A stretch of 64,000 nucleotides of DNA, taken from the NCBI RefSeq assembly GCF_030144855.1, contig NW_026781489.1:1-64000 (forward strand), given 5' to 3'. The stretch is from Hypanus sabinus. Lineage: Eukaryota. Within the stretch, counting starts at the first letter, position 1. Every line of letters starts with the position of its first letter. The notes beneath the pieces are model-generated. The model was not told where the DNA came from. It worked only from the letters and a program-made list of their open reading frames with translations, and searched no databases. The translations under genes were made by a program, and so were the position numbers. This document shows, one piece after another, positions 1,930-33,857 of the stretch.

Positions 1930-4072
1930 CATGCAGCTTATTGAAACTTTCTCCCTAGTGTGAACCTAGTAGTGTGTCACAAGGTTAGATTACTGAGTGA
2001 ATCCCTTCCCACATTCACAGCAGGTGAACGGCCTCTCCACAGTGTGAACCCAATGATGCACATTTGGTTGATTTGGCTGAGAGAATCTCTTCCTGAAGTC
2101 TGAGCAGGAAATAGGTCTCTACCTAGTGTGAACTCGCTGGTGTTTCAGTAGATTGGATGACCGAGTGAATCCCTTTCCACACACTGAGCAAGTGAATGGC
2201 TTCTCCCCAGTGTGAAGTCGCTGGTGTCTCCGTAGGTGGGATGACTGAGTGAATCCCTTCCCACAGTCTGAGCAGGTGAACGGCCATTTCCCTGTGTGGG
2301 CTGACTGTAGTGTCTGTAGGTGAGATGACCGACTGAATCTCTTTCCACAGTCTGAGCAGGTAAACCGCTTCTCCCCAGTGTGAACTCTCTGATGTACCTT
2401 CAGTTGGGATGAGCAAGTGAATCCCATCCCACAGTCTGAGCAGGTGAACGGCCGCTTCCCAGTGTGAACTGACTGGTGCGCAATTAGGTCAGATAATCAG
2501 ATCAGATAATCGAGTGAATCCTCCCGCACAAAATCAGCAGATGATCAGCCTTTGCCCAGTGTGAATTGACTGGTGGGAAGATCATCGGAATCCCTTCTCA
2601 CAAACAGAACAGGTGAATGACCTTGTCCAGTGTGAACTCGCTGATGTACCTTCAGTTGAAATGACCAACTGAATCCAGTCCCACTGTCTAAGCAGATGAA
2701 GGGGTTCCCCCTTTGTAAAATGATGGGCGTGCCAGTCAGTCAGATGACTGAGTGAACCAGGTGAATGGCCTCTCGTCAGTGTGAACTGACTGGTGTGCCT
2801 TCAGTTCAGATGAGCGACTGAATCCCTTCCCACAGTCTGAGCAAGTGAACGGACTCTCTCCAGTGTGAACTAACTGGTGTGCAAGTAGGTCGGATGACCG
2901 AATGATTCCCTTCCCACACTCTGAGCAGGTGAACAGCCTCTCCCCAGTGTGAACACGCTGATGTACCTTTAGGGTCGATGACCGAATGAATCCCTTCCCA
3001 CACTCTGAGCACGTGAATGTCCTCTCCCTGGTGTGAAATCGCTGATGTGCCTTTAGGTGGATGACCAAATTAATCCCTTCCCACAGTGTGAGCAGGTGAA
3101 CGGTCATTTCCCTGTGTGGGCTGACTGGTGTGTCTGAAGGAGAGATGACTGATTGAATCCCTTCCCACAGTCTGAACAGCTGAACCGCCACTTCCCAGTG
3201 TGAACTGACTGGTGTCTCTGGAGGGAGGATAATTCAATGAATCCTTTCCCACAGTCTGAGCAGATAAATGGCCTCTCTCCGGTGTGAACTGACTGGTGTC
3301 TCAGTAGCTGAGATGACAAAGTGAATCCCTTCCCACAGACTGAGCAGGTGAATGGCCTCTCCCCAGTGTGAACTGACTGGTGTCTCTGGAGGGGAGATGA
3401 CTGAGTGAATCGATTCCCACAGTCTGAGCAGGTGAATGGCATCTCTCCAGTGTGAACTGACTAGTGTCTCTGGAGGGGAGATGACTGAGTGAATTGCTTC
3501 CCACACTCTGAGCAGGTAAATGGCCTCTCTCCAGTGTGAACTTGCTGATGTAACTTCAGCTTAGATGAGCAAGTGAATCCCTTCCCACAGTCCGAGCAGG
3601 TGAACGGCCGCTCCCCGGTGTCAACTCGATGGTGAGCCATTTGGTCAGATGTTCGAGTGAATCCTCCCGCACAAAATCAGCAGATGATTAGCCTGTGCCC
3701 AGTGTGAATTGACTGGTGTTTCCACAAGTGGGAAGATCAACGGAATCCCTTCTCACAAACAGAACAGGTGAATGGCCTTGTCCAGTGTGAACTCGCTGAT
3801 GTACCTTCAGTTGAAATGACCAACTGAATCCAGTCCCACTGTCTAAGCAGATGAAGGGGTTCCCCCTTTGTAAAATGATGGGCGTGCCAGTCAGTCAGAT
3901 GATTGAGTGAACCAGGTGAATGGCCTCTCGTCAGTGTGAATTCTCTGATGTACCTTCAGTTGTGATGACTGAGTGAATCCCTTGTTCCACTTCTTAAGTA
4001 TCTGGGCATTGACAGCAAAACTGGTGTGTTGTGTTTGAGATTCCCATAGACAAATTTCTTGTCATTTTTAAC
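1930..4072 (-). pseudogene. C2H2 (Kruppel-type) zinc-finger array exon, disrupted
   Basis: Repeated CxxCGKGF...[11 protein letters not shown] fingers (ORFs 3104-3442, 2736-3191, 2119-2427). Splice acceptor tttttccag|g at 4072. Possible start MAHHRV at 3640; in-frame TAG ~3461, TGA ~3104 and a frameshift ~3065. Confidence 0.9.
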
Positions 4073-4409
4073 CTGGAAAAAGATTTACAAAATCCATCAG
4101 TGGGTGAAGGTCAACATTTCAGATGAGATCATTTGAGTTGCCAAGGTGCAATCTGGCATCACACTGTTACAGTTATGTTCAACACATGTTGGAGAAGTCA
4201 TCTTCTAACTGGGCATAGTGCTGGTATCTGGAATGACCATCAAATTCTCTGATGCTCCTCCTGTCTCTATAAGAATGGTGCTTTTCTGCCATCTCCAATC
4301 TGTGACCTGGCTCAGTTTGACTCTCTAAATTGGTATTATTCCCAATTCCCACTGAGCTGCATGGGTACCTGGCCTCACAGTAACTGGAAAACTCTCACAC
4401 AAATAGCCG

Positions 4410-5300
4410 GCAGTGCATTCCATGCACCCACCACTCTCTGGGTAAAAAAACAACCCCTGACATCCTCTTGGTAACTATTTCCAAGCAGCTTAAAACTATG
4501 CCCTCTCGTTTTAGCTGTTTCAACTCTGGGAAAAACCTCTGGCTATCCACACACTTAATGCCCTTCATCATCTTATACTTCTAAAACATGCTCTAAACAT
4601 AAACAAGGAAATTATACATTGCTTTGAGGATTTGCTGGAAGTATACAAAACTATATGGGTATGGATAGGGTAACGGCAAGCAGGTTTTTCCACTGAGATT
4701 ATGTGGGTTGGTCATGGGTAAGTAGGGAAGGTGAAAATTGAATGGAAACATTTGGAAAAGCTCTTTACTGAAATGGTCGTGAGAGTGTGGAATGAGATGC
4801 CAGCACAATTGGGGAACATAGCACGGTTTCACTGTTTCAAAGAAGTTTGGATGGGAGCCTGGATGGTAGGGGTATGGAGGGCAATAGTCACAGAGGCAGG
4901 CAGTTGCATTAGACAGCTTAAATGTTTTTTCAGCAAATAGCCAAATAGCCTGTTTCCATACTGAACTTCTCCATGTTTCTATGACAGAGAAGCTGGACAA
5001 ACTTGTTTGGAAGGGAAAAGTGAGAATGGAGCAGCAATGACTGGAGTTTCTGGGAGCAATTCGGGAGCTGAGAGATAGATACATCTCAAAGAAGTGGAAG
5101 CATTGAAAGGCAGAAGGACACAATTGTGGCTAAAATGAGAAGTCAAAGCCTACATAAAAGCCAAAGAGAGGGCAAACAAAAGAGCAAAAACTACTGAGAA
5201 ACATTTAGAAACCAACAAAAGTTGACTAAATAACAAGTCAGATGAGCTCAGTGCGTGGAATCATGATATTGTAGTCATTAATGAGTCTTGGTAGCACCCA
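4410..5300. mobile_element. CR1 LINE fragments (3' end pieces in both orientations plus an internal piece)
   Basis: ORF 4731 ...FTEMVVRVWNEMP... is a CR1 RT C-terminal motif; 4990-5220 resembles the CR1 ORF2 linker. Confidence 0.7.
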
Positions 5301-5339
5301 ACAGTCTGATGCATTCAGAGGAACAAAATATCCGGGGCC

Positions 5340-7060
5340 TCAATATATCTTGAAAACCAAGGTACCCTCCACCAGGTACCTTTCAGCTATTATTTTGACA
5401 GGCACATACAAACTCCACACCCTCAAAATTTCTCTTCTGAAGGCCTCCCACTTACCAAGAACTCCTTTGCCAGAAAACAGCCTGTCCCAAACCACACTTG
5501 TCAGATCCTTCCTGATATCATCAAAATTGACCGTTCCCCAATTTAGAATCTCAACCCGTGGTCCAGACCTCTCCTTTTCCATCTTTATTTTCAATTTCAT
5601 GGCATTATGATCACTAATTTCTGTCACCAGCCCTGGATCATTTTCTAATAGCTTATTGCACACCTCTACTTTGGGAATTCTATGTATTGATTAAGGGCAC
5701 ATTTGACAAACTCTATCCCATCTAGTCTTTTTTACAGTATGGGAGTCCCAGTCAATATATGGAAGTTAATATATACTGGATCAACCTTCGTTTCTTGGCA
5801 TGGTCTGCGTTCTCTCTACAAATTTGTTCCTCTAAATCCCTCAGACTAAATCCTAATTCACAATAATGGATACAATATCATTATTCCCTGTCCTGAGCTC
5901 ATCTGGCTTTCCTACGATGCTTCTTGCATTGTGATATACACAGCTCAGCACATTCATCGGACCATGCTCAGCCATTTGATTGCTGACTCCATCTGAGGTC
6001 TGAACAACATCTGACTGGTGTCAAGAAAACAACCTCTCCCTCATTGTCACAAAAACAAGGGAACTGATTGTGAGGACACGAGGAATGGATACAGGCTAAC
6101 CCCTTTTGATATCAATGGATCTGGGGTTAAGAGGGTGAACAGCTTTAAGATCCTCGGCATAAACATCACCAAGGATCTCACATGGTCTGTACATGCCAGC
6201 TGCGTTGCGAAAAGAGCGCAGCAGCACTTCTTTCACATCAGACAGTTGAAGAAGTTTGGGATGGAGCCCCAAATCCTCAGAACTTTCTACAGAAGCACAA
6301 TTGAGAGCATCCTGACTGGCTGCATCACTGCCTGGTATGGGAACTGTACTTCCCTTAATCACTTGAACTTGCAGAGAGTGGAGCGGACACCCCAGCACAT
6401 CTGTAGATGTGAACTTCCTACTTTTCAGGACATTTACAGAGACAGGTGTGTAAAGAGGGCCCAAAGGATACTGGGGACCCAATTCACCACAACCACAAAC
6501 TGTCCTGCTGCTCCCATCCAGGGAACAGTACCACAGCAAAAGGACCAGCTGACTCTGGGCCATCATCTTCCACCAGGCCATCAGACTGATTAATTCATGC
6601 TGATACAATGCATTTTTATGTTATATTGACTGTCCGAAGTACAAACTATTTATTTTAAATTCCTATAAATTACACAATGCACATTTATTTAATCCCCTCT
6701 TGTCCTGTTCCCCTAAGTAATGAATCCCCGATCATCCCTTTGACTCTCCTCTGAAAGGTAATCCTACCAACAGTTTCTAAAGTGGTCCACCTGCTGTTGT
6801 GCGAGATAGCAACAAGAGTACTCTGCAATGTTTATTTAACCTCATTCCCCTTACTGACTCTCAGCCAGTTTCCTGTGTCCTGCACCTTGGGGGTAACTCA
6901 CCTCTTTTCATGTCATACCTATTACCACCTCCAACTCCTGGATGATCGGGAATTCATCCATTTCCAGTTCCAACTCCTTAAAGTGCAGGGTTACAAACTG
7001 CAGCTGGATGCACATCTTGTAGGCAAGGGCACCAGGGACACTGGAGGTCTCCTCACCTTC
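5340..7060 (-). mobile_element. CR1 LINE 5' portion (ORF1 coiled-coil region and endonuclease/linker), interrupted by a Rex-type LINE
   Basis: ORF 5340-5663 (SDHN...LNWGTVNFDDIRKDL..VVWDRLF.GK) is CR1 ORF2. Minus strand ~6930-7015 reads CIQLQ...KELELEMDE, like CR1 ORF1. Confidence 0.7.
6018..6690 (+). mobile_element. Rex1/Babar-type LINE 3' fragment (RT C-terminal, DUF1891-like region)
   Basis: ORF: VNSFKILGINITKDLTWS..KRAQQ.FF.IRQLKKFGM...FYRSTIESILTGCITAWYGN, followed by an AT-rich tail. Confidence 0.85.
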
Positions 7061-7465
7061 CCACCAATGTCCCCTCTAATTTGTAATGACCAGTGTGCAC
7101 ATAAATCTTGTACAGTGCTTTTTATTAACCCAGTGACAACATGTGCACGGTGGATTTTATACAGAGAGGTATTCATTTTAACAGCTAGCAAATCACTGTT
7201 GATAAGAACTTCGATCTCCGACTGGTTCGATCCAGTTCATCTGCACTCTGTAGCAGGCCTGTAATGGGGAATAAAGGATTTTATCCTTTTGGACATTGTT
7301 CATCTGTGGTTTCCTTGCTAAATTACACTTTAAAAGTCAGATTTCCAAATATCAGTCCACTTCCCACTTGTAAATTCCAGCAATATTTGCATCACCACAA
7401 TACACGCAGTTAACACCAGTTTCTGCATTAGACATAAATGTTTCCACTGAGCCCTCATGAGGAAT

Positions 7466-8103
7466 TGAGAATATACGGAAATATACAGAATATACAGATC
7501 ATTTTGAACCTATGTAACCTCTGGCTCAAAGAATAATTGAGAGTGAAAAGGAATTTTTGATCTGTCTTCAACAGTTAGCTAAAACAGGCTCATTACCAGT
7601 TCTCTGCAGCTTGCAGGGAGACACACTGAGAGCTGATAACATTATACATTGCACCGTCATTAGCTGATAACGTTATAGATATTGTACCCTCGTTTGAGTA
7701 AAGGGAGGAGGGCTTGACGATAAGGACAGGAACGAACATCTGTCTGTAATTAAGTCAGGGCCTTGCAAAGGGAATAACTGATAAGGACTAGACAGTACAT
7801 CCATCTGTAATTAAAACCTTCATTTAGTGAACTCTCTTATCTACGTAATAAAGGTTTGCACCAACAGACTTGGTGGGCGTACCAATTCAAAAACCATCTT
7901 GCAATAGTAATGTATGGGGTTTAATTATGTATAAATATATGGCTGTAACCTGACTAAGTCAGTCCATTTCTCAGACGGTGGCAGTGCTTACGTGCCTTTC
8001 CCTTTGACATCTGGGTCTCAGACTCCTGCAGGAAAATGCGCAAGAAACTGTATTTATGATAAGAAGCTGGTCTTCCGAGGTTTATTCAGATTCAAATTTA
8101 ACA
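7466..8103 (+). mobile_element. ERV 5' LTR (left boundary approximate)
   Basis: Ends ...TTTAACA two bases before an 18-nt PBS; TATAAATA at ~7930; internal short duplications (gctgataac; tgataaggac...catctgtaatta). Confidence 0.7.
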
Positions 8104-8105
8104 TT

Positions 8106-8123
8106 TGGCGTCACGAACAGGAT
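8106..8123 (+). promoter_or_regulatory. Retroviral primer binding site complementary to tRNA-Ser (CGA type) 3' end
   Basis: TGGCGTCACGAACAGGAT is the reverse complement of ATCCTGTTCGTGACG-CCA, recalled as the 3' end of a vertebrate tRNA-Ser(CGA). Confidence 0.8.
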
Positions 8124-8424
8124 CCCAATATAGGGAGTGCCAGGCAGACGGGATGAGTAAGAGGCTGGACAATTCTGGGGACTGCTGAGACTGACTGGGT
8201 GCCCAATAGATATTTTATCTTTTGTTGCTCTCTGTTAGTTCCTTTGGAGGTACGGTCCCTCACCCAAGGCTGTTCTCATACCTGTATGAGATCGGGAAAG
8301 AATCTGTCGGGACTCTTGAATAAGGTAGGCAAAATTTTACTAAGTGGGCAGGAGGTTGGCAGATGTGCTGGGTAAATTTATTACGTGGGCAAGAGGTGCC
8401 AGCAGGGTATATTACTTGGAGAAC

Positions 8425-9921
8425 ATGGGTCAATTGCTGTCTATTGATACAAGTGGGCAAGGAGCAGCCTTACACAATATGAGTGAGAGTTTTCCAGACA
8501 AGGAAAAAGATTTGCGAATGTTTAGTGCAGCGCTGAATAAGAAATTGGGGAACAAAATGTTGCCACTTAGGGGTGGGTGGGGCTTGGAACCTGGGATATT
8601 ACCTCATGAGAACAAGCAGTAAATATGGTATGGAGAAAGAAATGTGGAAAGAAGTGGAAATTGTTGAAAATTGATTTGAAGAAAAAGGCAGAAGTAAAGT
8701 GGAACAATATATTATTAGCAAGTTGGAGGAATAATGCCTGTGAGAAAGGGGGAGAGGTATGTACAGCAGAAGGAACGCCAAAGGTTGGGAGACGCTAACA
8801 GCAGAAAGTGAATGGGTGGATGGGCGCCACAAACGTAGCAGGAAAAACAATGTAATCAAACCAAGGCCGGCCTAGGTAGGAGAGAAGGGCAGGAACGTCA
8901 GTCTGAAGTTCGAACTGATAGGGAAACAAAGGATCCCGAACCCATGTCTGGCATACCGAACCTGTTTGAGGACAGTGACCGTGATGAGGAGTGGGCACCC
9001 ACTGTACCCCCACCTCAGACATGGAGACGGATCGGGTAAAACAGCGGTGACCGGGAAGGGGAGTTCCCTAGACCCTGAGATCCAGAAAGGGAACCGAGGA
9101 TTTTGCTGAGACAGGGAGGAAAGAATCCAATAAAACCCCAGTTAATGGCTCCACAAAGATTGCCCACCCGAATGCTGCCCAATCCGTGAGCAGGAGGAGG
9201 GACGGCCCTCAGTGATTCCTGTGTATGCATCCTGGAAGCCTCCAGAAATGATAATGATCATGAATGAAGCCCCAGATAGAAAAGAAAAACCAGCACAGTT
9301 TGCTCAGTGTGTCCGCAGTACTATACAAATGTGTAATGCCTCCCCGCAAGATTTATTCGGTCTCTGCTGCATGATTCTCTCAGCTGCTGAGGGGTGGAAA
9401 TGGAAGGCAGAATTGAGATACCAAACCTATCTGGAGTTACAGTGGGAATCCATAATGAGAATGAACAGACAGACCATTTCATTCAAGCCTTGGAAAGGGA
9501 TTTCCAGCAACCTGTAAACATCACTAAAGTACTTGAGTACAAACCAAAGCCTGGGGAATTGAGACCAGACCTTTGGGAGAGATTTGAGGCCTGCTATGGC
9601 CCTTCTGCAGGAGACCACGACTTTAAAGATGGGAATCTGTCCCCCAGGTTTAATGACTTACTGCTCCAATGCTTATTGACTAAGTTAGCCAACATGATTA
9701 AAACAAATTATTTGGATTTGCCTGACAATGACCGAAATCAAATGTGATGAGCTTTGACATATTATTGTGACCGGGCTTTCGAATCCCGATCAACCCCGAA
9801 GAGAACTAATATTAAAGGTGAATATATTCAGTGGGAAGAAGGACACGAGAGGGTTATATCTGGGGATCAGAAATGGGAACAAAAACCTACCAAGGGACAG
9901 GTGGGGACAACAACCCATTAG
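8425..9921 (+). mobile_element. gag: ERV gag (degenerate; no NC zinc knuckle visible)
   Basis: MGQ start (myristoylation-type) ~300 nt after the PBS; capsid-like segments (WKPPEM...PDRKEKP; VLEYKPKPGE...ERF); several stops and frameshifts. Confidence 0.7.
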
Positions 9922-9937
9922 AAAATGACAAGCAAGG

Positions 9938-10290
9938 ATGCTTCCTACTGTGAGTACCACCCCTCAGGAAGAGCCCAATGTAATATTGCAAGTTGCTGGA
10001 ATTCCAATTCTATTTATGATTGATATGGGGGCAACCACAACCACTCCCGATCAGGAAATAGTATCGGAAAAGGGATTCCAGCTATCCGATGCTACAATCA
10101 CTCTGTCTGGGTACGTATTCACGCAGTCAGCCACTGCAGATGGAATTCCAGGGGAACCACTGTGAGGTTTCATTTACAGTCACTACCATTGGGGGGTTTA
10201 ATCTAGCAGAGAGAGACTTGCTCTGTCTGTTGGAAGTCGAGATTCTCTGCGTGGACAAGGGTATCACCCTGGGAATAGTGAACAACCGAC
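9938..10290 (+). mobile_element. pro: ERV aspartic protease (degenerate)
   Basis: P.V.L.V.G.PI.FMIDMGAT (DTGA to DMGA) and NLAERDLL..L (NLLGRD motif) across a frameshift. Confidence 0.85.
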
Positions 10291-10329
10291 AGCTTCCCCA
10301 GTTACCGACTCCACCCCCCCCCCCCCACC

Positions 10330-10700
10330 CCAGCGGCGGACACTTAATCTGGACTCCATTGCGATTAAACCCCTAATGACAGAGGCTGACCCTCATGTGA
10401 CTCTGTGCTATGACCCTCCGGGGTGCTCAACTGAGGAAAGCCAGTAATATGCACCCCTCGAGGGACAGAAGTTCCCAGTCATGGTGATTGGAGAGTTTAA
10501 AGGAAAAGAGGTCAGTGCATTACTGGACGAAGTTCCAGATTACCTTTGGCGACAGACAGGACTGGTGGTTCATACACCGTTAGGGTTTGCCCTGGGGTCA
10601 AGCCGAAGAGCCTGGGTTCCTTGCCTACAACTTGACAAAACAAGCCTCCAGCACCAAGGGAGAACAGCAAGACATGGCCATGGGCCAACTCCAATATTGG
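10330..10700 (+). mobile_element. Putative 2H phosphoesterase (CNPase-like) domain between protease and RT
   Basis: DPHVTLCY at ~10388-10411 and VVHTPLGFA at ~10565-10591, about 60 codons apart in one frame, then GVKPKSLG after a frameshift. Confidence 0.6.
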
Positions 10701-10794
10701 AAGGAGTCTGAGATGAAGATGGAACATCTGGTAAGAAATTCTTTAAATGTTGATCGAAGCTAAGACATTGTACTCCATCTCTGTGCAATTTTAG

Positions 10795-11290
10795 CCATGA
10801 GGTCGGCCGCACCAACTGTCCCCTGTCCGGATCACCGTGATAGAAGGACAGACTCTCCCATCTATTTCACAATATCCCCATATTATGAAGATGAAAGCCC
10901 TTTCGTGGATCCAGAAGGAAACAATATTTTGGCTATGCGATAGTGATGGACAGTGAAGCAATTGAGCAGGCCTCTTTTGAAGCAGCTGCCTCTGCCCAGA
11001 AGGCTGAGCTGTTTGCTTGGACTTCTGACTGTATCCTAGCAACAGAGAAAAGTGCGAATGTTAACACAGACTCCCGTTATGCATTTGGAGTTGTACATGA
11101 CTACGGGGCTCTCTGGGAACATGCGGATTCCTGACTTCCTCTGACCACCCCATTAGTAATGCTAACTTTGTGAACAACTCACACAGCTACCACGAGTTCT
11201 GTCTATTATTAAATGTGCAGCCCACACCCACATGTTCGACCAGGTCAATAAAGGCCTTTAGCAGATTAGACAGTGAAAAGTGCGGCACAA
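10795..11290 (+). mobile_element. pol: ERV pol: RT N-terminus fused by deletion to RNase H
   Basis: EVGRT..PVRITV....LPSISQYP is followed at ~10880 by Y.DES.F.D..G...GYAIV...SAQKAEL...NVNTDSRYAFGVVHDYGALW...IIKCAAH. Confidence 0.85.
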
Positions 11291-11349
11291 TCCTCCGTAG
11301 GTCTGTTCCCCTCGGGTTCCCGTCAAGCAGCCTTCCGTGACTTAAGCAG

Positions 11350-12402
11350 AATGGGTTTGCCAGACATGCGGGACGTACGTACTTTTCAGGGGGACGCCTC
11401 TGAGGAGGAGCGCAAACAATGCTCCTAGATGGGGTGCCAGAAAGACCCCGACCTAGGATTTTAGATCACCCCAGCAGGACAGGGTTGTGTTCTTACACAG
11501 TATTTACCAATATTGGTCGATTATATACACAATTGTACACACCTGGGAAAGGAGGGAATGAGTGGTAACCTGTACCCTGCATTCCGGGTACGACTCCCTT
11601 GACAGGTGGACCTTCTTCAGGTCTACAAGTTGATTTTATTGAATTGCCTAGAGTACATTGCTATAGATACTGCTTAGTTATTATAGGTGTGTTTAGTAGA
11701 TGGATTGAAGCTATTCCAACTACCAATAATACTGTTATGAATGTTGTAAAGGTATTATTACAGGACATAACTCCCAGGTATGGCCTGCCAGAGATGCTGA
11801 GCTCTGACAATGGCCCACACTTTGTAAACAAAGGGGTATGAAACAAACTAGCTATCAAGCAACAGTTCCACTGTGTACACCACCCACGGGCCGCTGGAAT
11901 AGTGGAAAGAACCAAAGGTATTCTGAGGAGCAAATTGGCCAAACTAGCAGCGGAGACTGGACACACTTGGTTGAAGGTCCTACCATTAGCACTGTTCTAC
12001 ATGTGGGTCACCACACACGGGAAAACAGAGTTGTCATCAATTGAAATCATTTCTGGACGGCCCATTAAGACACCCTGTGGACCAAGACCTTGTGTACCAT
12101 TGCTCCCAGAAAGTCTGCCAGCAAAATCGGATATGCACACCCTAGGGGGAAGAGATGGGGAAATACATATGCCAACTAACCAAGATTTTCCAAGCATTAC
12201 ATTCACAGATTCCACAGGCTTACAAGAAAGAAAACTACCCCGCAGAGAGCAGAGACTATCCCACAAAAGCTAGGAATTTTGTCCTGATTCAAGAGAAACT
12301 TGTAAATCGGTGGAGATGACCATATCAGGTGTCACTGACCGCTCCCACGTCTGTGAAAATGAAGGGGCAATCTTGGTGGATACATTGAACTGACCACAAA
12401 CG
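11350..12402 (+). mobile_element. pol: ERV integrase (degenerate)
   Basis: H..THLG; LQVDFIELP...LVI..VFSRWIEA.PT; SDNGPHF; HP.AAG.VER.KG.L..KL.K; C-terminal PYQV.L...T.VK..G...WIH. Confidence 0.9.
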
Positions 12403-13643
12403 TGTTACTGTAGGAACTGAGTAGTTGGACTCTCTCGGACTAAAGTAAAATGCATTGGTTGATAGTAGAGTGATGAACCCCTCGGTTTCTTGCCATGGAC
12501 TGTCACTTTAAGAGAGATTGCCTGAGTGTCATCAACGGCCGGTTTTCTCGGCTGCTGTTTGATTCTTACTGAGAGAGAGGGAGGGGTGGAACTATTTGAC
12601 TCTGCAGCGTGTTTACACTTGCTCACAGCTTGTGTTTACATAACTCGCAGTTTGCTTTCTTTAAGCAAGGACAGTCACAGACACACAGTCAGACGGAGAG
12701 AAAGAAAGAAGAAGGAAAGTTCGAAACAAAGAACCTAGTGGCCAAAGGTCAGTGTTTGCCGTTTCCTGTGCCCACAAGGGTGGGTTGATTATTGATCCAG
12801 CATACACCGAATTTTGTCCTGATTAAGAACTGGGATCAAGAGAAACTTTTTCTGATCCACTGGAGTGGATCTGTTGGTTTGGGAGTATCCTGTGAAGACC
12901 ACTTGTGCTAACCCTTGCCTGGGTGTGGTAATTCACTTGCAGAGGGTACCCCTGTGACAAATCACTGTTGATGCTAATTCCTATAATCCATATGTGGATT
13001 TTGTTGGGAGTATCCCGTGGCTACCACATTTGTTAACTCTTAGCTGGATTCAGGTGTGTTATGTGGTAACCATTTGTGAGAAGGGATATTCAGTGGAAAT
13101 CACTGTTGGTTATACTTTGTGCATTGGATCTGGATTGTGGATTGTGGAATCTACCTGTGTATTAACCCCTGTCTGTGTGGTAGTTCCCTTTGAAGACGGT
13201 ACCACTGTGATAAGCTACTTCCGGTGATAATTCGTATGTGGATTTGGATCGATGAAAGATATGATCTTCACCGAATGTTATCCTGTTTTATCACCGTGGA
13301 ATTTGACATAATTGACTCCTCTTGACTTTCACCCTGGATTACAACTATCTCTCTCTCATCATTTATTCCATGGATGAACTGAACTTTCATACTTCTGAAT
13401 CTCAGGATTTAAGCTTGATATTCCCTGAGCTCAATGGTTTGTGAGTAAAATTTACACAGATGTATACTCATAACACTTAACTTTTGCTTGTCTTGCTTAA
13501 GTTGTTATATTATAAGTAGATACACATAAAGATATTGGTGTTAACATCAAAACCAGACTTACCAAAACCAGACTTTTGGTTAACACCAAAATTGGTGTGT
13601 TCTATTGCTGCTGGTTCATTTAAACTGTTACAGGTACATAACA
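12403..13643 (+). mobile_element. Gypsy-type solo LTR inserted at the ERV pol/env boundary
   Basis: TGTTA...TAACA termini; non-coding; interrupts the ERV between integrase end and env; 3' motifs shared with 270-990. No TSD found. Confidence 0.6.
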
Positions 13644-14460
13644 TTGGTGTTGGTGTTTATGTCTTTGAGAGGGCTGACCCCAGCTTCCAGGGTCCCCATG
13701 TTAACAGATTTCTGTCTCTCTGTCACGCCGATGCCAAACAGGTAAAACTAGGGGCCTGCTGGGTTTGTGCCAAAATTGCGCAGCACAGTAAAACTATGAT
13801 TGCAATGTCAGGAATCCCGCTCAACCACAGTGAGGAACTCTCAGCCTGGGCTTTCTCAAACAACACCCGGGAAAGTGAGGTGAGGAAATGTGGTTCAGTC
13901 AGAGATGACTGTGGCTGTCAGTGTTCTGAGGGATGGTATCTCAGGCTCCCACCAAACACAACTTCCTAGACTGGGAAACATGCATCCTGACCAGACTTGC
14001 AGGTGCCCGGCAGCGGAGAGGAATAACTGAGACTGAGCGATTTTGAATGATGACTTTTCTCTCCTATGGAGTAGCCAGGAATTCACGAGATATAATCAAT
14101 TTGGCTACAGTGCTTGAGGAGCTGGCCACAATACTGCAGGGAGCCTGACAGAAACACAGGCCCAAGTAACAGAAATATCCACTGAAATGATTGCAATCCA
14201 GAAAACAGTCCTACAGAATCGTATGGCTTTAGATTTTATCCTCACTGAGAAAGGGGGAACCTGTGCTATTATTGACACAGAATGCTGCACCTATATCCCT
14301 GATGAGTCTACTAACTTTACGTCCCTCTCCGAGCACACTGCCAAGGAGATTGACAGCATCAAGAAAGTAGGGCAGGATTTACATGGGTTCACCGAAGGGT
14401 TGAAGACCTGTTAGGTAATATTGTGCGCATGATATTGCATTATGGCCCAATAGTTGTACA
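13644..14460 (+). mobile_element. env: ERV env, gamma-type, internally deleted
   Basis: N.FLSL....A......CWVC (SU CxxC); furin site RQRR at 14008-14019; immunosuppressive domain LQNRMALDFIL; CX6CC (CAIIDTECC). Confidence 0.92.
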
Positions 14461-14468
14461 TAATGATC

Positions 14469-14760
14469 AAAAGGAGGGAACGATAATATATGTAAAAGTG
14501 TTAACACTTAGTTAAACAAGAGCAGCCTGTTTTTCTGAAAGAAACTGCTGATGGTCAACAGATGTGCTCAGCCATGCTGAGCCATATTTCGTCTTGAGGG
14601 AAACTAGCTAGGGCTTCAAGATGGTTATCTCCTTGGACACTCGTGCTTAGAGATAGAACAGCTTCAACTGTTCTGTGTGTGTAAGTCAATATGACTATTT
14701 TGTCATTTGCTTTAGGGACTGTCATGTAGTAAGTAGCTTTGGCTCCAGTCTGTCTTGTGT
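14469..14760 (+). mobile_element. Polypurine tract and presumed partial 3' LTR
   Basis: AAAAGGAGGGAA at 14469-14480 right after env; the downstream sequence is not visibly similar to the 5' LTR. Confidence 0.5.
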
Positions 14761-15048
14761 GGGAGGGTGGGTGGTGGGTATCTGTGGTGTAAGGGGAATT
14801 GTTAGTCAATGAATGGATTGGGCAGGACAGTCAAGGAAGTCATGGAAGACTTCCACAGAATGGGAGAAGTTTTAAAGGGCTGCGCTTCTGGAAGCACATT
14901 ACCAGACCTGCAGTGATTCCAACTGGGTCTGACAGAGGCATAACTGGTTCTTCTGGGCACATTCAGTCTCACTCTCAACTATTTCCTACCTTCCTTTGTA
15001 CCGGTGTGTAATGGCTGAAGGACCAGAGTTTGAGTAAATGAGACTCAC

Positions 15049-15194
15049 CAAACTTTCTCCTGACTGAATCACAGGAATCTCTGAGTCAGATGGTTTCTCT
15101 CCAGTTGATGCTCTCAATCCTCGGGCTGGTTCACTTGTTGCAGTTCCCTCGTCTTCAGTCGTGGTTTGCTTCCAGTTCTCACCGCAGGTGTAAC
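15049..15194 (-). other. Candidate internal exon (possibly of the ZNF transcript)
   Basis: Minus-strand ...aaag| acceptor and |gtgagt donor; one open frame (..NWKQTTTEDEGTATSEPARGLRASTGEKPSDSEIPVIQSGESL). Confidence 0.35.
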
Positions 15195-15389
15195 TTTAAC
15201 ATGAAAGATAATGAAGCACTTTAACAATAGAAATGAGAACCAAACGTTTCTGCTTAATGTTACTAAGAACAAAACTCGCTGAAATTTAAACGTTGAAGGC
15301 AGATATACTGATCTCAGTGAACAATCTTTTATTGTCCCTCACCCGTCACAAAATGATATGGGATAAGAAGGAGCCATAAATCAGTCATG

Positions 15390-15860
15390 GTAAGACATAA
15401 GACACAGGAACAAAATTAGGTGATTCGATCCATCTGGTCTGCACCACCACTCAACCAAGGCTGATTTTCATTCCAACACCATATTCCTGCCTTCCTCCTG
15501 TAACCCTGAAGCTACTTAGCAATCATGAATATATTAATCTCTGTCATAAATATACCCAACCAACCTCTGCAGCAACAAATTCGATAGATCAGACATCTTT
15601 TCAACAAAACAAACATTCACAGTTTTAAAGGGAACAACTTTATTCTGAGACTGTGCTGCCAGATCACAGACTCCCAATCTAATGGAAACATCCTCTCTGT
15701 GTCCACTGTATCCAGGCTTATCAGCATTCGGTAGGTTTACTTAACCGTACATCCCTCCACAACCCCCACCGTCCCTCTGAACTCCATTGAGCACAGGTCC
15801 AGAACACAAATACTCCTCATACATAAAGCTGATCATTCCTGAGAGTACTCTTCTAAACCT
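15390..15860 (-). mobile_element. CR1 LINE 3' fragment
   Basis: Starts with the reverse-complement CR1 tail (acataagacacaggaacaaaattagg..attc) followed by degenerate RT C-terminus. Confidence 0.65.
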
Positions 15861-17109
15861 CATTAGCAACAACTGTACTGAACACATTTCCAGGAAGAAC
15901 AGACAGATTGGTACCAGGATTATGTTACAGGTAAAAGCTGTGTTTTATTTACTGTTCTACCATCACAGAACGAGCCATTTCCATTTCCAGGTTAAAACAG
16001 GTCTATTTCAGGAAATATAAACCATTACATGGTGACAGTAATAAAAAAAAAAACTGGAGTTACCAGAAACGCTCAGCAGGTAAGGAACACCTGTGGGGAG
16101 AGGAACAGTCTTTCCCATTCAGGTTAATAACATTTTGTCAGAATGACTTCAAACATTTTCAGTTTTTAATGCAGATCTCCAGCAACTTGACTTCCACCGA
16201 GTGACAGTCTTGTGACAGTGGGGGGAGGGGCGGGGGGTAGATTTCCAAACATAGATTGAACACAATACTCATGGTCTCTTTCTACTGTTGTAAACATGAA
16301 ACAGACCATTTACTCCTAGCCTATCCCTGTGAGAATGGAATGGGAACTAATCCTCTCCTCAGATTAGCAGTCATTGCTTCCAAAGGAACTCCAGTAACAA
16401 ATGTTTGATCCTAACAAGAAATACTCATTCAACACTTCATAAGCCCAAGCAGCTCAATCCCCAGGTCCAATTTACCTGGATCAAAAACTGTGATATCCCA
16501 GGACCCAAGCTTACAGAGTCACACAGCTGAATCTGCCACTCACCGACCCTGAGATTCTCACACATCGTCCATGCATCTCACACTGGGTAGTGCAATCAGA
16601 GATTTCCCTACAACTAATATCCAGCTGCTCAAAATGTCTGCTTCATTTCAGAAGGAAACACCATCTATAGAAGCAGTAACCAATGTCAAAGCCAAAACAC
16701 CGACAGTTCCATATGCTGGGAATGTCGATCACGAGATTATAGCCCAAGCACCAACTGTTCCAGTTCTCTTTGCAGACAGTCACAGTTTGAAAACGAGCAC
16801 TCCCACAGCAATGCACAACACAACTCTTGCCTGATGACCCTCCGGCATTCCAGCTAAGAAAAACCTATTCAGGAAATAACTCAGCAAGACCAAAGTTGCA
16901 AAAGAACATTTCACAATGAAGACAAGGATTAGAAGAAAGATTGCTGATATATAACATTGAGATGGTGCGATATAGGGTGGACCAAGTTTGTTCTAGATGC
17001 TTGATATACATCACTGAAGCTGGGGGAGAGAGAAACTGGACAGAGGTTGAACAAGATGGGCAGGGAATGAGCAGATGGAACCAGGTGGGAGAAGAGATCA
17101 AGGGCAATC

Positions 17110-17760
17110 ACTGATGGTTCTCCAGCAATACGCAGATACTGAATGAATAGTACATAATACTGTATAAAAAAATTCTAAAATGACAAAGTTAGAACAAACA
17201 GCAAGAACTTTGCCATATACACTTTGACCCTCACCAATTTTTTATCAACACACCAGAGAAAGTTTCCCATCCGGACACTTCACGCTCTGCATGGTAACTG
17301 CTCTGCCCATGACTGCAAGGAAAAGCAGAGAACTTTGGATCCAAAACAACATCCAAAGTTCTCTGCCCTCTCCCCTCAAAGAACACTTTCTAGACTTCCC
17401 AGTCCCTTGGTAAAGCAGGCATTGAAATCAAAAATAGAAACATAGAATCATAGAAAACCTACAACACAATACAGGCACTTCGGCCCTCAAAATTGTGCCA
17501 AACATGACCCTACATTAATGACTAGGCTTACCCATAGCCCTCCATTTTTCAAAGCTCCATGTACCTATCCAAAATCTCTTAAAAAAAACCCTATCATTTC
17601 TGCCTCCACCACCATTGCTGGCAGCCCATTTCGTGCAATCACCACTCTCTGAGCAAAAAACTTACGACTGACATCTGCTCTATACCTACTCCCCAGCACC
17701 TTAAACCTGGGAGGCAACCATTTCAGCCCTGGGAAAAAGCCTCTGACTATCCACATGATC
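17110..17760. mobile_element. Rex-type fragment (+, ~17110-17430) followed by CR1 3' end (-, ~17435-17760)
   Basis: TLTNF...GNCSAHDCK..QR matches the Rex C-terminus; (atagaa)n tail and RKFFAQRVV..RNGLP on the minus strand match CR1. Confidence 0.6.
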
Positions 17761-18514
17761 CCTATAACCTGGAGCGTTCTCCATTTTTACCCACCCCAAT
17801 CAGGGAGAAGACACAACAGCCATAAAGCTCAGGACAAATGCAAGGAGCCTCAGGAAGTGAGGAGAGTTGGGGGAAGTTACGGGACTCAGTGGCCAACATC
17901 AGATTTCCCCAACACAACATGGAGGAAGCATCACCACCCATCTGGGAACTGTGCACACTCCACGTGATCTTACATCACAAAGCCGAAGGTGGGGCAGATC
18001 TGCGGTCAGCAGCCTGATGTGAACCGTCGGCAGGACTTCCATTTCAATTCTGCGGAAAAAGACAGCCTGGGCTCCTGGTTTGGATTGTTCAATGCAGATT
18101 AAATGAAGTCTACATATTTTTGATGAGCCCAGATAACTGGAAAATAAATGAGTAACTGGCCCTCAGTTCAGGGCTCACGGCCAACACCAGATCTCCCCGC
18201 TTAGGATCGGTCTCAATACTCACTGATGGCAAAGTGATATCTTCGACCCACAGACAGTGATCCCGACCCAGGAAGTGAGGATCCCTTCCAATTCCGCAGA
18301 CTATCCACTTCAGCAGTGAGCGGAAAGGAAATCACCATCCATCCGAAGAATGTGAGCATGTGCGCAAAGATTGTTACATCATCCAGAGGGCGGGGCCTCA
18401 AGAAACAGACACGCATATGCTGCCCATCTGCAGTTAAATGGGAGGGGCAAATGTGAACACATAACCAGAGGGGACTCCCAACCCAAGCAGAGCACCCCAA
18501 CTAACCTCCCACTC

Positions 18515-19199
18515 CAGACATCCCACCTATCCGAGAAGTTCTGGGATTCTCCCACATATTGATAGCGGCTCCCTGATGCCCCCAAATTATGTACAATATC
18601 CTGGAAACAATCTTTTTGAGAGTGACCAAGCAAGAGGGAGAGAGACACAGTGACAAAGAGAGCATCCTGATTGGTCTCTCTTTGTGTTAAGTAGACCTAT
18701 CAGTTTTCTCTGTGGGCTGGCTTTACAGTCGACCACTCTCTCTTTTATTGTCCATCAGTTCTGATCAGTGTGTCAACTAACCTTGAGGGACGGTGCCAAA
18801 CTACAAAAGTTTGCCAGTTGATGAGTTCTGGTGGAAGCTGTCCAAAGTAAAATCTGTGAGCACAGGGCAGTTGAGATTCAAAGAGCTCTGCCAGTTGATG
18901 AAGCTGCTTTTGGTGCTGCCAAATTCTGATTGTGAAGTAGAAATTGCACTCAGAATGGCGCGTCACATTAAGACATAATTCAGAAGTCAGCTGTCTCACA
19001 AAACACTTGTGAATCTTATAGCCTGCAAAATTAACAATTTCATTAACACAGACTGCAGTGAGGTTAAAACTTCTGGCAAAATGCTCCAATTTGCCAAGCA
19101 AGCCACATCACAGTGTAAGGAATGTTTGCAAAATAGAAAAGCTCTTTGCATTAGTATTTAGTTATTAGCATTGAGACTGCCTACAAAATACTCTACAAG

Positions 19200-19236
<37 letters not shown>

Positions 19237-19460
19237 CACACACACATATATATACACATATACATATATATATATATATGTGTGTGTATAAATAGATTCA
19301 ATATGTGATCTAATAAATTGTTATGCTCTTTCATAATCAATTCTCCTGTATGCATACACTCTTGGAATCGGTGGGGGGAGGTGAGGGCATATGGGGTTGT
19401 GAGAGACAGGGGTGGTGGTGCTACCTCCCTGAAATTAGTTTTTGCAAGGTGGGATGTCTG
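18515..19460 (+). mobile_element. Internally deleted hAT DNA transposon with 14-bp TIRs and transposase dimerisation-domain remnant
   Basis: CAGACATCCCACCT (18515-18528) and AGGTGGGATGTCTG (19447-19460) are perfect inverted repeats. ~18790-19040 encodes DEFWWKL...F.EL..L...LLVLPNS....E...R....KT..RS.L...TL..L. Confidence 0.85.
19201..19290. repeat. (TA)n/(CA)n/(TG)n compound microsatellite
   Basis: Directly visible dinucleotide tracts. Confidence 0.95.
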
Positions 19461-19479
19461 CCACAAACTTGTCCCTCAC

Positions 19480-19980
19480 ATCTCCTCTCACCTTAAATGC
19501 ATTAGACATTTCATCCCCTAGGTAAAGATATCATATTTCACTCTATCTATTCCTCTGGCAATCTTATAAACGTACATCCAGTCTCACCCCAGCCAGCGTC
19601 GCTCTGGAGAAAACAACACAAATTTGTCCAAACTCTCATTATAGCTCACGCCCTCTAATCCAGGCAGTATCCTGGTAAACCTCTTCTATGCCCTCTCCAA
19701 AGCCCCGACATCCTTCAGAGAATGGGGGGCGACCAGAACTGTCTGAAATACTCCAGATGCGGCCTAACTAGTTTTATAAAGCTGCAACACAACTTCCTGA
19801 CTTTTGAAAATGCTTCAACTAATAAAGACAACCATGCCATTTGCCTTCTTAGCCACCCGATCAATCTGTGCAGATCCTTCAGGCAGCGATGAGTCTGAAG
19901 ATCCCTCTGATCATCGACAATGCTCAGGGTTTTGCATTTAACAGAGTCCTGTCTCCCGACATTCCACTCACCGAGCTACC
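19480..19980 (-). mobile_element. CR1 LINE RT C-terminal fragment
   Basis: Reverse complement reads LYKTS.RPHLEYF.QFWSP.....DVGALERA..RFTRILPGL. Confidence 0.75.
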
Positions 19981-32000: not shown

Positions 32001-32988
32001 TGTGGACTAATTCTCTTTCTATATTATATTCTCCTTCTCCTTCCCCTTATTACATTATCCTTCTACATCTCCGTGGCCTAATTCTACTTCTATATTTTAT
32101 GGTCTTATTCTCTTACATTCTTCCTTTCCGCATTGTTTCTGTAATGGGCATAATATCAGGATAGTGTGTTGCTAACCCCTCTCTGAAAACATTCCATTCA
32201 CTTTGCCCCAGTCATTACCTTGCTGTTGCCTTGTTTGATTGCTAAAGGTAATCCGACTGACCTCTGTATAACCTTCCTGCTTCTTTTGCCTTCCTTGTCC
32301 TGCTGAACCCATTATTGCTCCTCTGCCATACAAGTGCAAACTATCCTTCTTATGCAGTTCACCTGTAGAATAAAGAGATGCCAATATTAAAAAATAAAAC
32401 CTGTCTTCGTGCTTTCCAATTTTTTTTTAGCCACTGTTTCATCTGACAACCTGCAATTCTTAACTTCTCTCGCAAAAAAACACTCGTATTCATCCAGTTG
32501 GATTGAATGATTCCAATACCATTTACATGGCATGATACTAATTTATTTAATGGAACATTACTTTCTCTCCTAACTACTTTGTCCCCTCGTCTGCTGTGCC
32601 TTTTGTCCAATTATGTACAACCAGTCCCCACTAAATGTGGAGAAAGAAATCGACACCAGAGAGAAGGACATGGAGCCAGGAGATTTACTGAAGGATGCCC
32701 TCATCTGATCTGAACCTAATATACCCTGTTGTTTGTTCTCTGATAATAAAGCCATCGGAGGTCGAACCGCTTTCCCTCTTGTCCGTTGTTTCGCGGCGTG
32801 AAACTGGCACTGAATTGTTTCAGGGTGATCGAACACCAACACCCCATCGCAGTCAGCGCAGGCGCACTCGCGCACGGGCGGTCTCTTTGGGCAGTGGAAC
32901 TATCTGTAATCCAGCCTTACCATTCAAATATATTCACACTGAGCACATGAGACCCATTAAAAAATTACTCTTTTTTCTTTTGGTTCAG

Positions 32989-33857
32989 TTAATTTAGCGG
33001 CGATTGTGATCCTGTCTCGCAGAAATTGTGGGCTCTCCAAATGTATCACTCGCTACCTCGTGGCCATGGCGGCGTCTGATCTGATGGTCGTTCTCTTTGG
33101 TGTTGTATTGTATAAAATCAATACTCTCTACTTGTATGCTGTCTTCCTGATGAAAACTCGGCTGCGTACTCTGGGACCAATTCTGGGGATTGCCGCATTG
33201 GATTGTTCCGTTTGGCTGACTGTCGCTTTCACTTTCGATCGCTACGTCGCGATCTGCCTTCAGAAGCTGCGGACACGGTATTGTACGGAAAGAACAGCGA
33301 ACATGGTGATCGTGGCAGTGGTCATATGTAGCTGTGTTCAGTCATTTACGTTTTATTTTGCAGGAGAGTCAGGGAAACCCAAGCCCGAGTACTATACATC
33401 ATCCCTGTGGAGAGGTTACGAATTATTTGACACCATCATGAACCCATTATTACCAGTTGTTTTAATTCTGCTGTTCAATGTTTTAACCACTAGATCTGTT
33501 ATAGCAGCGAATATGGTTCGCCTTGGGTTTCGGAGAAATACTGACAGCAAAAGTGATCCAGAGGTTAAGAACCGGAAAAAGTCAATGGTTTTGTTGTTCG
33601 CTCTATCTGCAAATTTCATATTATTGTGGATAACCAATATTGTGCATTCCATGACGTGGGCAGCGGTAAACGTGTTTTTCACAGACAAATATTACAACAC
33701 GCCAACATTTATCCTACAAGAGTCTGGATATATGTTGATGTTGCTCAGTTCCTGCACCAACACGTGTATCTATGGACTGACACAGAGGAAATTCAGGGAA
33801 GAGCTGAAGAATGGGGCGAAATATCTGTTTACACTAAATGGGAAACTCTGTAAATAA
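32989..33857 (+). CDS. GPR139-like class A GPCR, coding exon 2 (full protein ~312 aa, ORF intact)
   Basis: Polypyrimidine-cag acceptor at 32988; YLVAMAASDL (TM2), SVWLTVAFTFDRYVAIC (DRY), NRKKSMVLL, SSCTNTCIYGLTQRKFR (TM7/H8). Confidence 0.9.

What the first reader, a model, noticed from the sequence alone, without database searches (positions are those of the whole stretch)
10330..10700. ERV pol carries a 2H-phosphoesterase (CNPase-like) module between protease and RT
Seen: ~150 codons separate the protease end from the RT start (PVRI..QYP), where most retroviruses have a short linker. One frame holds PHVTL (10391) and VHTPLG (~10568) about 60 codons apart, followed after a frameshift by GVKPKSLG. 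Established: paired H-x-T/S motifs define 2H phosphoesterases (CNPase, tRNA-ligase CPDase, viral 2',5'-PDEs that antagonise OAS/RNase L), and CNPase-like domains have been reported in some teleost ERVs. Inference: a cartilaginous-fish ERV lineage packaged a phosphodiesterase in its polyprotein, perhaps to open 2',3'-cyclic phosphates on RNA or degrade immune second messengers. The second motif is degenerate here and there is an in-frame stop, so this copy is dead.
Basis: partly seen in the sequence, partly recalled or inferred. Interest (0 to 1): 0.72.

Follow-up and report, generated by a model that had tools for sequence, protein, structure and literature searches.

The report
Dead fish retrovirus, CNPase-like domain
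A broken endogenous retrovirus carries, behind its protease, a domain predicted to fold like the host enzyme CNPase; such domains were already reported in fish retroviruses, and this copy belongs to a family that lost its reverse transcriptase and likely carried the domain only as a passenger.

Summary
The insert is real. Models of two natural copies from this genome (one from the window's own family) match mouse CNPase at Z 14.6-14.7, next 2H family 7.5-7.8, including the helix that is unique to CNPase. The top viral fold hits are walleye retrovirus proteins. Both His motifs are conserved from skates to sharks, in frame in an uninterrupted 1225-aa skate Pol. Two corrections. (1) 'VHTPLG' is a misreading: the frame breaks just after the His, and sibling copies read H-x-T/S there. 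(2) RT is not there: its first residues are joined to RNase H in the window and in the sibling copies read. This RT-less family moved (4-bp target duplications in 3 of 3 two-LTR copies) but shows no codon-position signal in the domain (ratio 1.04, P 0.36), whereas RT-bearing families do (1.5-1.6, P<0.001). Reviews already report 2H/CNPase domains in teleost ERVs and walleye dermal sarcoma virus, and this scan noted the same on two other genomes. Substrate untested; a 2',3'-cyclic phosphodiesterase is likelier than a 2-5A antagonist. New member of a known kind; interest 0.33.

The parts
7458..8103 (+). 5' LTR (TG...CA)
   Evidence: Ends match the paired LTRs of sibling copies L054, L059, L060
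8106..8123 (+). Primer binding site for tRNA-Ser(CGA)
   Evidence: Complement of the 3' end of a genomic tRNA-Ser(CGA) gene plus CCA
8426..9925 (+). gag remnant, many stops and frame breaks (start approximate)
   Evidence: Weak Pfam Gag_p24 at 9146-9514 (E 0.055, below cut-off); position between PBS and protease; 65-67% DNA match to RT-bearing relative L097
9926..9928 (+). TGA stop in frame just before the protease, likely the gag-pol read-through codon
   Evidence: A stop stands at this codon in 18 of 24 sibling loci that matched, of 26 tried; read-through is inferred
9929..10290 (+). Aspartic protease remnant (reads DMG at the catalytic motif, broken frames)
   Evidence: Pfam Asp_protease_2 E 0.014; sibling L002 RVP E 0.008 in one open frame with both His motifs
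10331..10745 (+). CNPase-like 2H phosphoesterase domain, about 140 codons, broken by a stop (10445) and two frame breaks (after 10573, near 10615)
   Evidence: Sibling alignment; folds of natural copies L068 and L006 match CNPase
10391..10405 (+). First His motif, PHVTL
   Evidence: Sequence; His in 15 of 17, Thr in 16 of 17 rows of alignment A4
10571..10573 (+). His codon of the second motif; the frame breaks right behind it
   Evidence: His in 17 of 17 and Thr/Ser in 17 of 17 rows of A4
10822..10878 (+). Stub of the RT N-terminus (PVRI..QYP); about 440 codons of RT and tether are deleted behind it
   Evidence: tblastn against skate Pol P0007: residues about 312-754 uncovered; same junction in 8 of 8 siblings read
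10880..11290 (+). RNase H remnant
   Evidence: Pfam RNase_H E 4e-7
11400..12330 (+). Integrase remnant, with a shared deletion and frame change in the zinc-finger part (bounds approximate)
   Evidence: Pfam rve E 4e-8 at 11575-11811; frames of 8 siblings
13645..14410 (+). env remnant: short SU piece and TM with LQNRMALD and CX6CC
   Evidence: Pfam TLV_coat E 4e-7 at 14085-14402; frames
14469..14480 (+). Polypurine tract; no 3' LTR follows
   Evidence: Same tract precedes the 3' LTR in L054, L055, L059, L060; no second LTR match in the window

Best explanation
The stretch is the decayed gene for a compact domain, predicted to have the CNPase fold, that fish retroviruses of this group carry in Pol behind the protease, and that likely worked as a 2',3'-cyclic-phosphate phosphodiesterase in the RT-bearing ancestor but rode as a neutral passenger in this RT-less family. 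Shown: fold match, conserved His motifs, in-frame position in an intact Pol, purifying selection in RT-bearing families, RT deletion and neutral divergence in the window's family, integration of RT-less copies with target duplications. Inferred: the ancestor made Gag-Pro-2H-RT-RNaseH-IN by stop read-through, so the domain entered particles and was cut out or stayed on RT; His1/His2 and the N-terminus of the CNPase-type helix position water to open 2',3'-cyclic phosphates to 2'-phosphates; the likeliest substrates are cyclic RNA ends or 2',3'-cNMP left by host endonucleases during infection. A Lys in place of Val321 and the loss of Arg307 suggest that the preferred ligand is not exactly CNPase's. 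The RT-less family would have been copied in trans by helpers such as the sister family L097/L106, and later multiplied by segmental duplication.
For: Model of L068 (pLDDT 95.5): Foldseek top rows are all CNPase/RICH (best E 3e-6); VIA over 48,161 chains CNPase 2xmi Z 14.7, rmsd 3.6, 148 aligned, next 7.8. Model of L006, the window's own family (pLDDT 88.8): Z 14.6, rmsd 2.4, 141 aligned, next 7.5. A helix follows the second motif strand in both models; its spacing (His+15 Gly) equals that of the host CNP exon and human/rat CNPase; PMC4643303 (passages) calls this helix unique to CNPase and tied to stereospecificity. Aromatic at the Phe235 position in 16 of 17 rows. Skate XP_055501356.1: RVP, HVTL 143, HLTL 203, RVT_1, RNase H, rve in one 1225-aa frame. 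Domain found in 17 of the 20 best RT-bearing loci fetched. Codon-position divergence p3/p12: 1.53 (15 copies, P 0.0006) and 1.60 (9 copies, P 0.0002) in two RT-bearing families; 1.04 (15 copies, P 0.36) in the RT-less family, like its protease, RNase H, integrase (0.95-1.06) and an LTR control (1.04). RT core uncovered in the window and 25 of 26 loci. 4-bp target duplications in L054, L059, L060. Tree joins the RT-less family with RT-bearing L097/L106 at 100/98.
Against: No activity data exist here; a fold shows no function. Sequence identity to CNPase is only 14-18%; Pfam CNPase did not match any of 17 rows, and the other 2H families matched only below cut-off; profile comparison with the host CNP exon failed (probability 0.9%); PDB sequence searches found nothing relevant. 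Arg307 is absent in 17 of 17 rows and Val321 is Lys in 15 of 17, so CNPase's substrate preference cannot simply be carried over. The ESM Atlas gave a GATase_2 cluster (0.94) for the decayed copy L006 and only sub-0.9 leads for the skate domain. Some of the 15 RT-less copies share flanks with the window (segmental duplicates), so they are not all independent. Protease cleavage sites around the domain were not tested.
Confidence: 0.6

Rival explanations
1. The domain is an immune antagonist that degrades a second messenger (2-5A, cGAMP or ADP-ribose cyclic phosphate), as the 2H enzymes of coronaviruses, rotaviruses, poxviruses and phages do.
For: Viral 2H domains have this role (PMC9503650, passages). 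This genome holds a tandem cluster of OAS genes on C31. The conserved Lys at the Val321 position could bind an extra phosphate (inference). Weak Pfam Acb1 matches in 8 of 17 rows (best E 0.012).
Against: Rotavirus VP3, MHV ns2, Acb1 and poxvirus cGAMP PDE score Z 5.5-7.5 against 14.6-14.7 for CNPase. The CNPase-type helix sits where it narrows the cleft (PMC4643303). Both KEN-domain matches in this genome are IRE1 (2 of 17 candidates), so no RNase L was seen; this exon-wise search is weak evidence of absence.
Confidence: 0.2
2. The domain acts without catalysis being the point: a mimic or decoy of host CNP, which binds retroviral Gag and blocks particle assembly.
For: Mammalian CNP binds Gag/MA and inhibits lentivirus assembly (PMC5434554 and PMC7471995, passages). 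The host has a CNP gene. The domain would sit in the Gag-Pol polyprotein at the assembly site (inferred).
Against: All four catalytic residues are kept across families only 30-45% identical, which argues for catalysis. The viral domain lacks CNP's N-terminal domain and tail. Nothing here shows that fish CNP restricts retroviruses.
Confidence: 0.1
3. The domain serves the replication cycle itself: healing cyclic-phosphate ends on the packaged tRNA primer or genomic RNA so that reverse transcription can proceed.
For: It abuts RT in Pol; 2H domains heal RNA ends in viral RNA-repair systems (PMC9503650); a tRNA-ligase CPDase cluster was a weak Atlas lead (0.81).
Against: CNPase chemistry leaves a 2'-phosphate, which would need a further enzyme to remove. 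Walleye virus entries with the same fold are labelled envelope polyproteins (matched range not shown), which suggests no fixed tie to RT. Most retroviruses do without it (general knowledge).
Confidence: 0.1

Closest known systems
CNPase-encoding epsilon-like ERVs of ray-finned fish (Basta et al. 2009, as cited in PMC4977317) and the 2H domain of walleye dermal sarcoma virus (Mazumder et al. 2002, as cited in PMC9503650)
   Same: CNPase-like 2H domain inside a fish retrovirus; BFVD top fold hits are WEHV1 Q9WHI8 (E 2e-8) and WDSV A4GTG3 (E 2e-5).
   Different: Host is likely a cartilaginous fish (named homologues: Mobula, Amblyraja, Leucoraja, Scyliorhinus, Heptranchias). Here the domain is in Pol, while the walleye entries are labelled envelope polyproteins. 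This copy is in an RT-less family. Neither primary paper was held; that Basta placed the domain between protease and RT is recalled, not read.
Vertebrate CNPase / fish RICH catalytic domain (Pfam PF05881; PDB 2xmi, 1woj, 2i3e)
   Same: Best fold match by a wide margin; both His-x-Thr motifs, aromatic at Phe235, helix after the second motif with the same spacing to Gly324; Trp at the Tyr168 position (inferred from the aligned range ends).
   Different: About 140-150 aa against 216; His-to-His 60 against 79; no N-terminal domain or tail; Arg307 absent, Val321 is Lys; 14-18% identity; no Pfam match.
Viral 2',5'-phosphodiesterases and anti-CBASS/cGAMP 2H enzymes (rotavirus VP3, MHV ns2, Acb1, penguinpox PDE)
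   Same: 2H fold, small size, carried by a virus.
   Different: Z 5.5-7.5 and 104-112 aligned residues against 14.7 and 148; they lack the CNPase-type helix (PMC4643303 states it is absent in other 2H enzymes).
Non-autonomous, internally deleted ERV families (general class, recalled)
   Same: LTRs, PBS, PPT kept; RT lost; moved in trans; coding remnants diverge neutrally.
   Different: Keeps most of gag, protease, the 2H domain, RNase H and integrase as remnants; later amplified with zinc-finger gene blocks.

Membership tests
2H phosphoesterase superfamily | Two His-x-Thr/Ser motifs | tested here: met
   His1 15/17, Thr 16/17; His2 17/17, Thr/Ser 17/17 in A4. In the window's copy motif 1 is whole and motif 2 is cut by a frame break.
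2H phosphoesterase superfamily | Two-lobed 2H fold | tested here: met
   Predicted models; the 17 best VIA rows for L068 are 2H proteins; same for L006.
2H phosphoesterase superfamily | Phosphodiesterase activity | not testable with these tools
   Needs an enzyme assay.
Vertebrate CNPase family | beta5-alpha7 loop and helix alpha7 | tested here: met
   Helix 101-114 (L068) and 96-107 (L006) after the motif-2 strand; Gly at His+15 in 15 of 17, as in CNPase.
Vertebrate CNPase family | Aromatic residues Phe235 and Tyr168 | tested here: met
   Tyr at His1+5 in 16 of 17; Trp at the Tyr168 position in 15 of 17; the second assignment rests on aligned range ends only.
Vertebrate CNPase family | Arg307 and Val321 | tested here: not met
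   No Arg in 17 of 17; Lys/Arg/Gln in place of Val in 17 of 17. Positions set by spacing from His2.
Vertebrate CNPase family | Sequence match to Pfam PF05881; N-terminal domain and C-terminal tail | tested here: not met
   No PF05881 match in 17 rows or in P0007; flanks are protease and RT. So CNPase-like, not a member of the host family proper.
Viral 2',5'-PDE / Acb1 / cGAMP PDE | Closest fold among 2H families and cleavage of 2'-5' or cyclic dinucleotides | tested here: inconclusive
   Listed at Z 5.5-7.5, half of CNPase's score; activity not testable.
Endogenous retrovirus | LTR, PBS, gag-pro-pol-env order, PPT, target duplication | tested here: met
   3' LTR missing in the window, both LTRs and 4-bp duplications in L054, L059, L060.
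Epsilon-like (class I) retroviruses | RT phylogeny with epsilonretroviruses | not tested
   This family has no RT and no named reference RTs were at hand; the label rests on the walleye fold hits, the TM motifs and PMC4422223/PMC4977317.
Autonomous provirus | RT gene present | tested here: not met
   0 of 167 RT-core residues in the window and 25 of 26 loci; the 26th is an opposite-strand 23% match outside the element's pol.

The most novel reading that the evidence does not exclude
Fish retroviruses took a minimal CNPase from the host lineage, changed its ligand pocket (Lys for Val321, no Arg307) and kept it under selection in most RT-bearing lineages, in Pol here and in Env in the walleye viruses. 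It would be a virion-borne counter-defence enzyme against a nucleotide signal or RNA-cutting defence of fish that is not yet described, and a handle on the unknown natural substrate of CNPase.
Probability: 0.25. Interest if true: 0.7.

Novelty: new member of a known kind. Interest (0 to 1): 0.33.

Why it matters
The domain's presence in fish retroviruses is in print, so the finding itself is not new. What this work adds is modest: structural support that it is CNPase-type rather than 2-5A-PDE-type, a selection test showing that replicating lineages needed it while an RT-less parasite family did not, and its wide presence across the RT-bearing ERV families of one genome. I found no functional test of the retroviral domain in the searches made. 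As the physiological substrate of CNPase is still unknown (abstract of PMC3290555 in the listing), a small natural viral version is a cheap enzymology target.

Tried and rejected
Pfam on window pieces and on five sibling frames: no 2H family. Word-index protein searches: 0 hits with the decayed copy L006, 2 with the skate domain, 3 with alignment A3; no teleost Pol came up, which reflects low sensitivity, not absence. The HMMER scan of 1.84 billion representatives gave 9 hits, of which P0009 (beetle repeat protein) was dropped as spurious. PDB sequence searches: nothing relevant. hhalign against the host CNP exon: no match. Atlas GATase_2 lead for L006 rejected: both models give the 2H fold. 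Nei-Gojobori dN/dS gave 0.55-0.72 for all RT-less regions and 0.14-0.38 for RT-bearing families; it lacks a neutral baseline, so the codon-position test was used. The idea that the RT-less family kept the domain by selection was tested and rejected. The tree had shifted labels and 16 of 17 rows; discarded and redone. No RT-bearing copy close to the window family was found; the nearest are 65-72% identical in DNA (that search used a stricter first look, 68 of 27,522 candidates scored). No RNA run was listed for the stretch. Basta 2009 and Mazumder 2002 are not held. PMC4422223, PMC12690878, PMC5434554 and bioRxiv 2021.11.23.469661 hold no passage on a retroviral phosphodiesterase (term look-ups only). 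PMC6307210 passages name elephant-shark OAS but did not settle RNase L in fish.

Full report
Observation. The window lies in a 4.04-Gb genome (G000:C2622). A DNA search gave 545 first-look candidates (40 scored) and a protein search 731 (150 scored). Aligned with 10 siblings, the window's copy breaks frame directly after the second His codon and again near 10615. 'TPLG' is therefore out-of-frame reading; siblings read H-x-T or close variants. The window alone has no in-frame motif pair (45 loose motifs, 0 pairs).

Anatomy. The element has a 5' LTR (7458-8103), a primer binding site for tRNA-Ser(CGA) matching a genomic tRNA gene, gag, a TGA in frame before the protease (a stop in 18 of 24 matched siblings), protease, the insert, RNase H, integrase, an env remnant with a TM match and a polypurine tract without a 3' LTR. 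Against the skate Pol, 0 of 167 RT-core residues are covered in the window and in 25 of 26 ten-kb loci; the exception is an opposite-strand match away from pol. Three loci hold both LTRs (73-87% alike) and all three have 4-bp target duplications, so RT-less copies integrated on their own. 13 of 26 loci share flanks with the window and are segmental duplicates.

Relatives. A profile of nine natural sibling frames found 9 proteins among 1.84 billion representatives; 8 are ERV Pol pieces, one was spurious. Named ones come from Mobula, Amblyraja, Leucoraja and Scyliorhinus, and Heptranchias. XP_055501356.1 is one 1225-aa frame: protease, HVTL at 143, HLTL at 203, RT, RNase H, integrase. In this genome several RT-bearing families carry the domain in frame; 17 of the 20 best RT-bearing loci fetched have it. 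A domain tree joins the RT-less family to RT-bearing L097/L106 at 100/98 (19 rows). That the host is a cartilaginous fish is inferred from these names and is not shown.

Fold. Two natural single-frame copies were folded. L068 (RT-bearing family; pLDDT 95.5): every listed Foldseek PDB row is CNPase or RICH (best E 3e-6); VIA gives CNPase Z 14.7 over 148 residues, next 7.8. L006 (the window's family; pLDDT 88.8): Z 14.6, rmsd 2.4, 141 residues, next 7.5. Among viral models the best hits are WEHV1 Q9WHI8, the unnamed Q2VF30_1 and WDSV A4GTG3. Sequence methods barely see this: Pfam gives only sub-threshold 2_5_RNA_ligase2 (4 of 17 rows), LigT_PEase (4 of 17) and Acb1 (8 of 17), no CNPase, and hhalign to the host CNP exon fails. 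By spacing from the His residues the rows keep His230, Thr232, His309, Thr311, an aromatic at Phe235 and Gly324, but lack Arg307 (17 of 17) and have Lys at Val321 (15 of 17). Both models have the helix after the second motif that PMC4643303 (passages) describes as unique to CNPase.

Selection. Third versus first/second codon-position divergence in the domain is 1.53 (15 copies, P 0.0006) and 1.60 (9 copies, P 0.0002) in two RT-bearing families, and 1.04 (15 copies, P 0.36) in the RT-less family, the same as its other remnants and an LTR control. Replicating lineages kept the domain under constraint; the window's family carried it passively. Three of the 15 RT-less copies (window, L045, L065) share flanks, so they are not all independent insertions.

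Mechanism. Most likely the autonomous ancestor made the domain as part of Gag-Pro-Pol by read-through, packaged it, and used CNPase chemistry to open 2',3'-cyclic phosphates on nucleotides or RNA ends made by host nucleases (inferred; 0.6). Rivals: degrading 2-5A or cGAMP (0.2; the host has an OAS cluster, but the two KEN domains found are IRE1, and those viral enzymes fit half as well); a decoy of host CNP, which binds Gag in mammals (0.1; PMC5434554, PMC7471995); healing of primer or genome ends (0.1).

What is known. PMC4977317 (passages) reports CNPase-encoding epsilon-like ERVs in ray-finned fish after Basta 2009; PMC9503650 (passages) lists 2H domains in fish retroviruses and walleye dermal sarcoma virus after Mazumder 2002. 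Neither primary paper was held. Term look-ups in PMC4422223, PMC12690878 and bioRxiv 2021.11.23.469661 found no phosphodiesterase passage. Searches showed no report for cartilaginous fish, no functional test and no description of this RT-less family, but the library lacks most subscription papers and no supplements or repeat databases were seen. This scan noted the same domain on two other genomes; those notes came after my own reading and did not change it.

Verdict. A real CNPase-like 2H domain in a dead provirus; a new member of a kind known since 2002-2009. The additions are the structural assignment, the selection contrast and the RT-less family. Interest 0.33; the bolder reading, an altered virion-borne CNPase aimed at an undescribed fish defence, has probability about 0.25 and would rate 0.7.

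Noticed in passing
L024, L027, L029-L040, L047, L048 (just behind the second His motif): A subfamily of copies has a Tc1-like transposase piece joined to the 2H domain right after the second motif, replacing the rest of the domain and the RT stub (Pfam DDE_3 E 6e-10 in L024). In several copies the join keeps the frame.
   Followed up: partly
G000:C39:23761138-23765331 (L111), L112, L113 and some 45 further places: A more distant ERV family with long open frames (up to 1506 aa) also carries the domain (HCT and PHV/ITL motifs; E 6e-12 to 4e-9).
   Followed up: partly
BFVD entries Q9WHI8 and A4GTG3: The best viral fold hits are labelled envelope polyproteins of walleye retroviruses, so the module may sit in Env there and in Pol here; the matched range was not shown.
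   Followed up: no
window 3988-19955 against L041-L043, L045, L047, L048, L051, L052, L057, L058, L061, L064, L065: 13 of 26 fetched loci share flanking DNA with the window beyond the provirus, so many copies are segmental duplicates of one insertion, spread over several large contigs.
   Followed up: partly
window 1950-4010, minus strand: Tandem C2H2 zinc-finger gene remnants with frame breaks (84-bp period).
   Followed up: partly
window 32961-33857, plus strand: Open 298-aa frame of a rhodopsin-family GPCR (Pfam 7tm_1 E 2e-14).
   Followed up: no
window 48506-52430: 20-bp minisatellite, 196 copies; it explains the many long overlapping ORFs there.
   Followed up: partly
G000:C31:79654985-79853208: Tandem cluster of about eight OAS genes; no RNase L-type KEN domain was seen, only two IRE1 genes.
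   Followed up: partly
window 12466-13645: About 1.2 kb between integrase and env that many siblings lack; likely a later insertion, not identified.
   Followed up: no
P0004 (XP_032872110.1, Amblyraja radiata): A public gene model fuses this ERV's 2H and RT to a zinc-finger array; likely a gene-prediction artefact in a similar zinc-finger neighbourhood.
   Followed up: no
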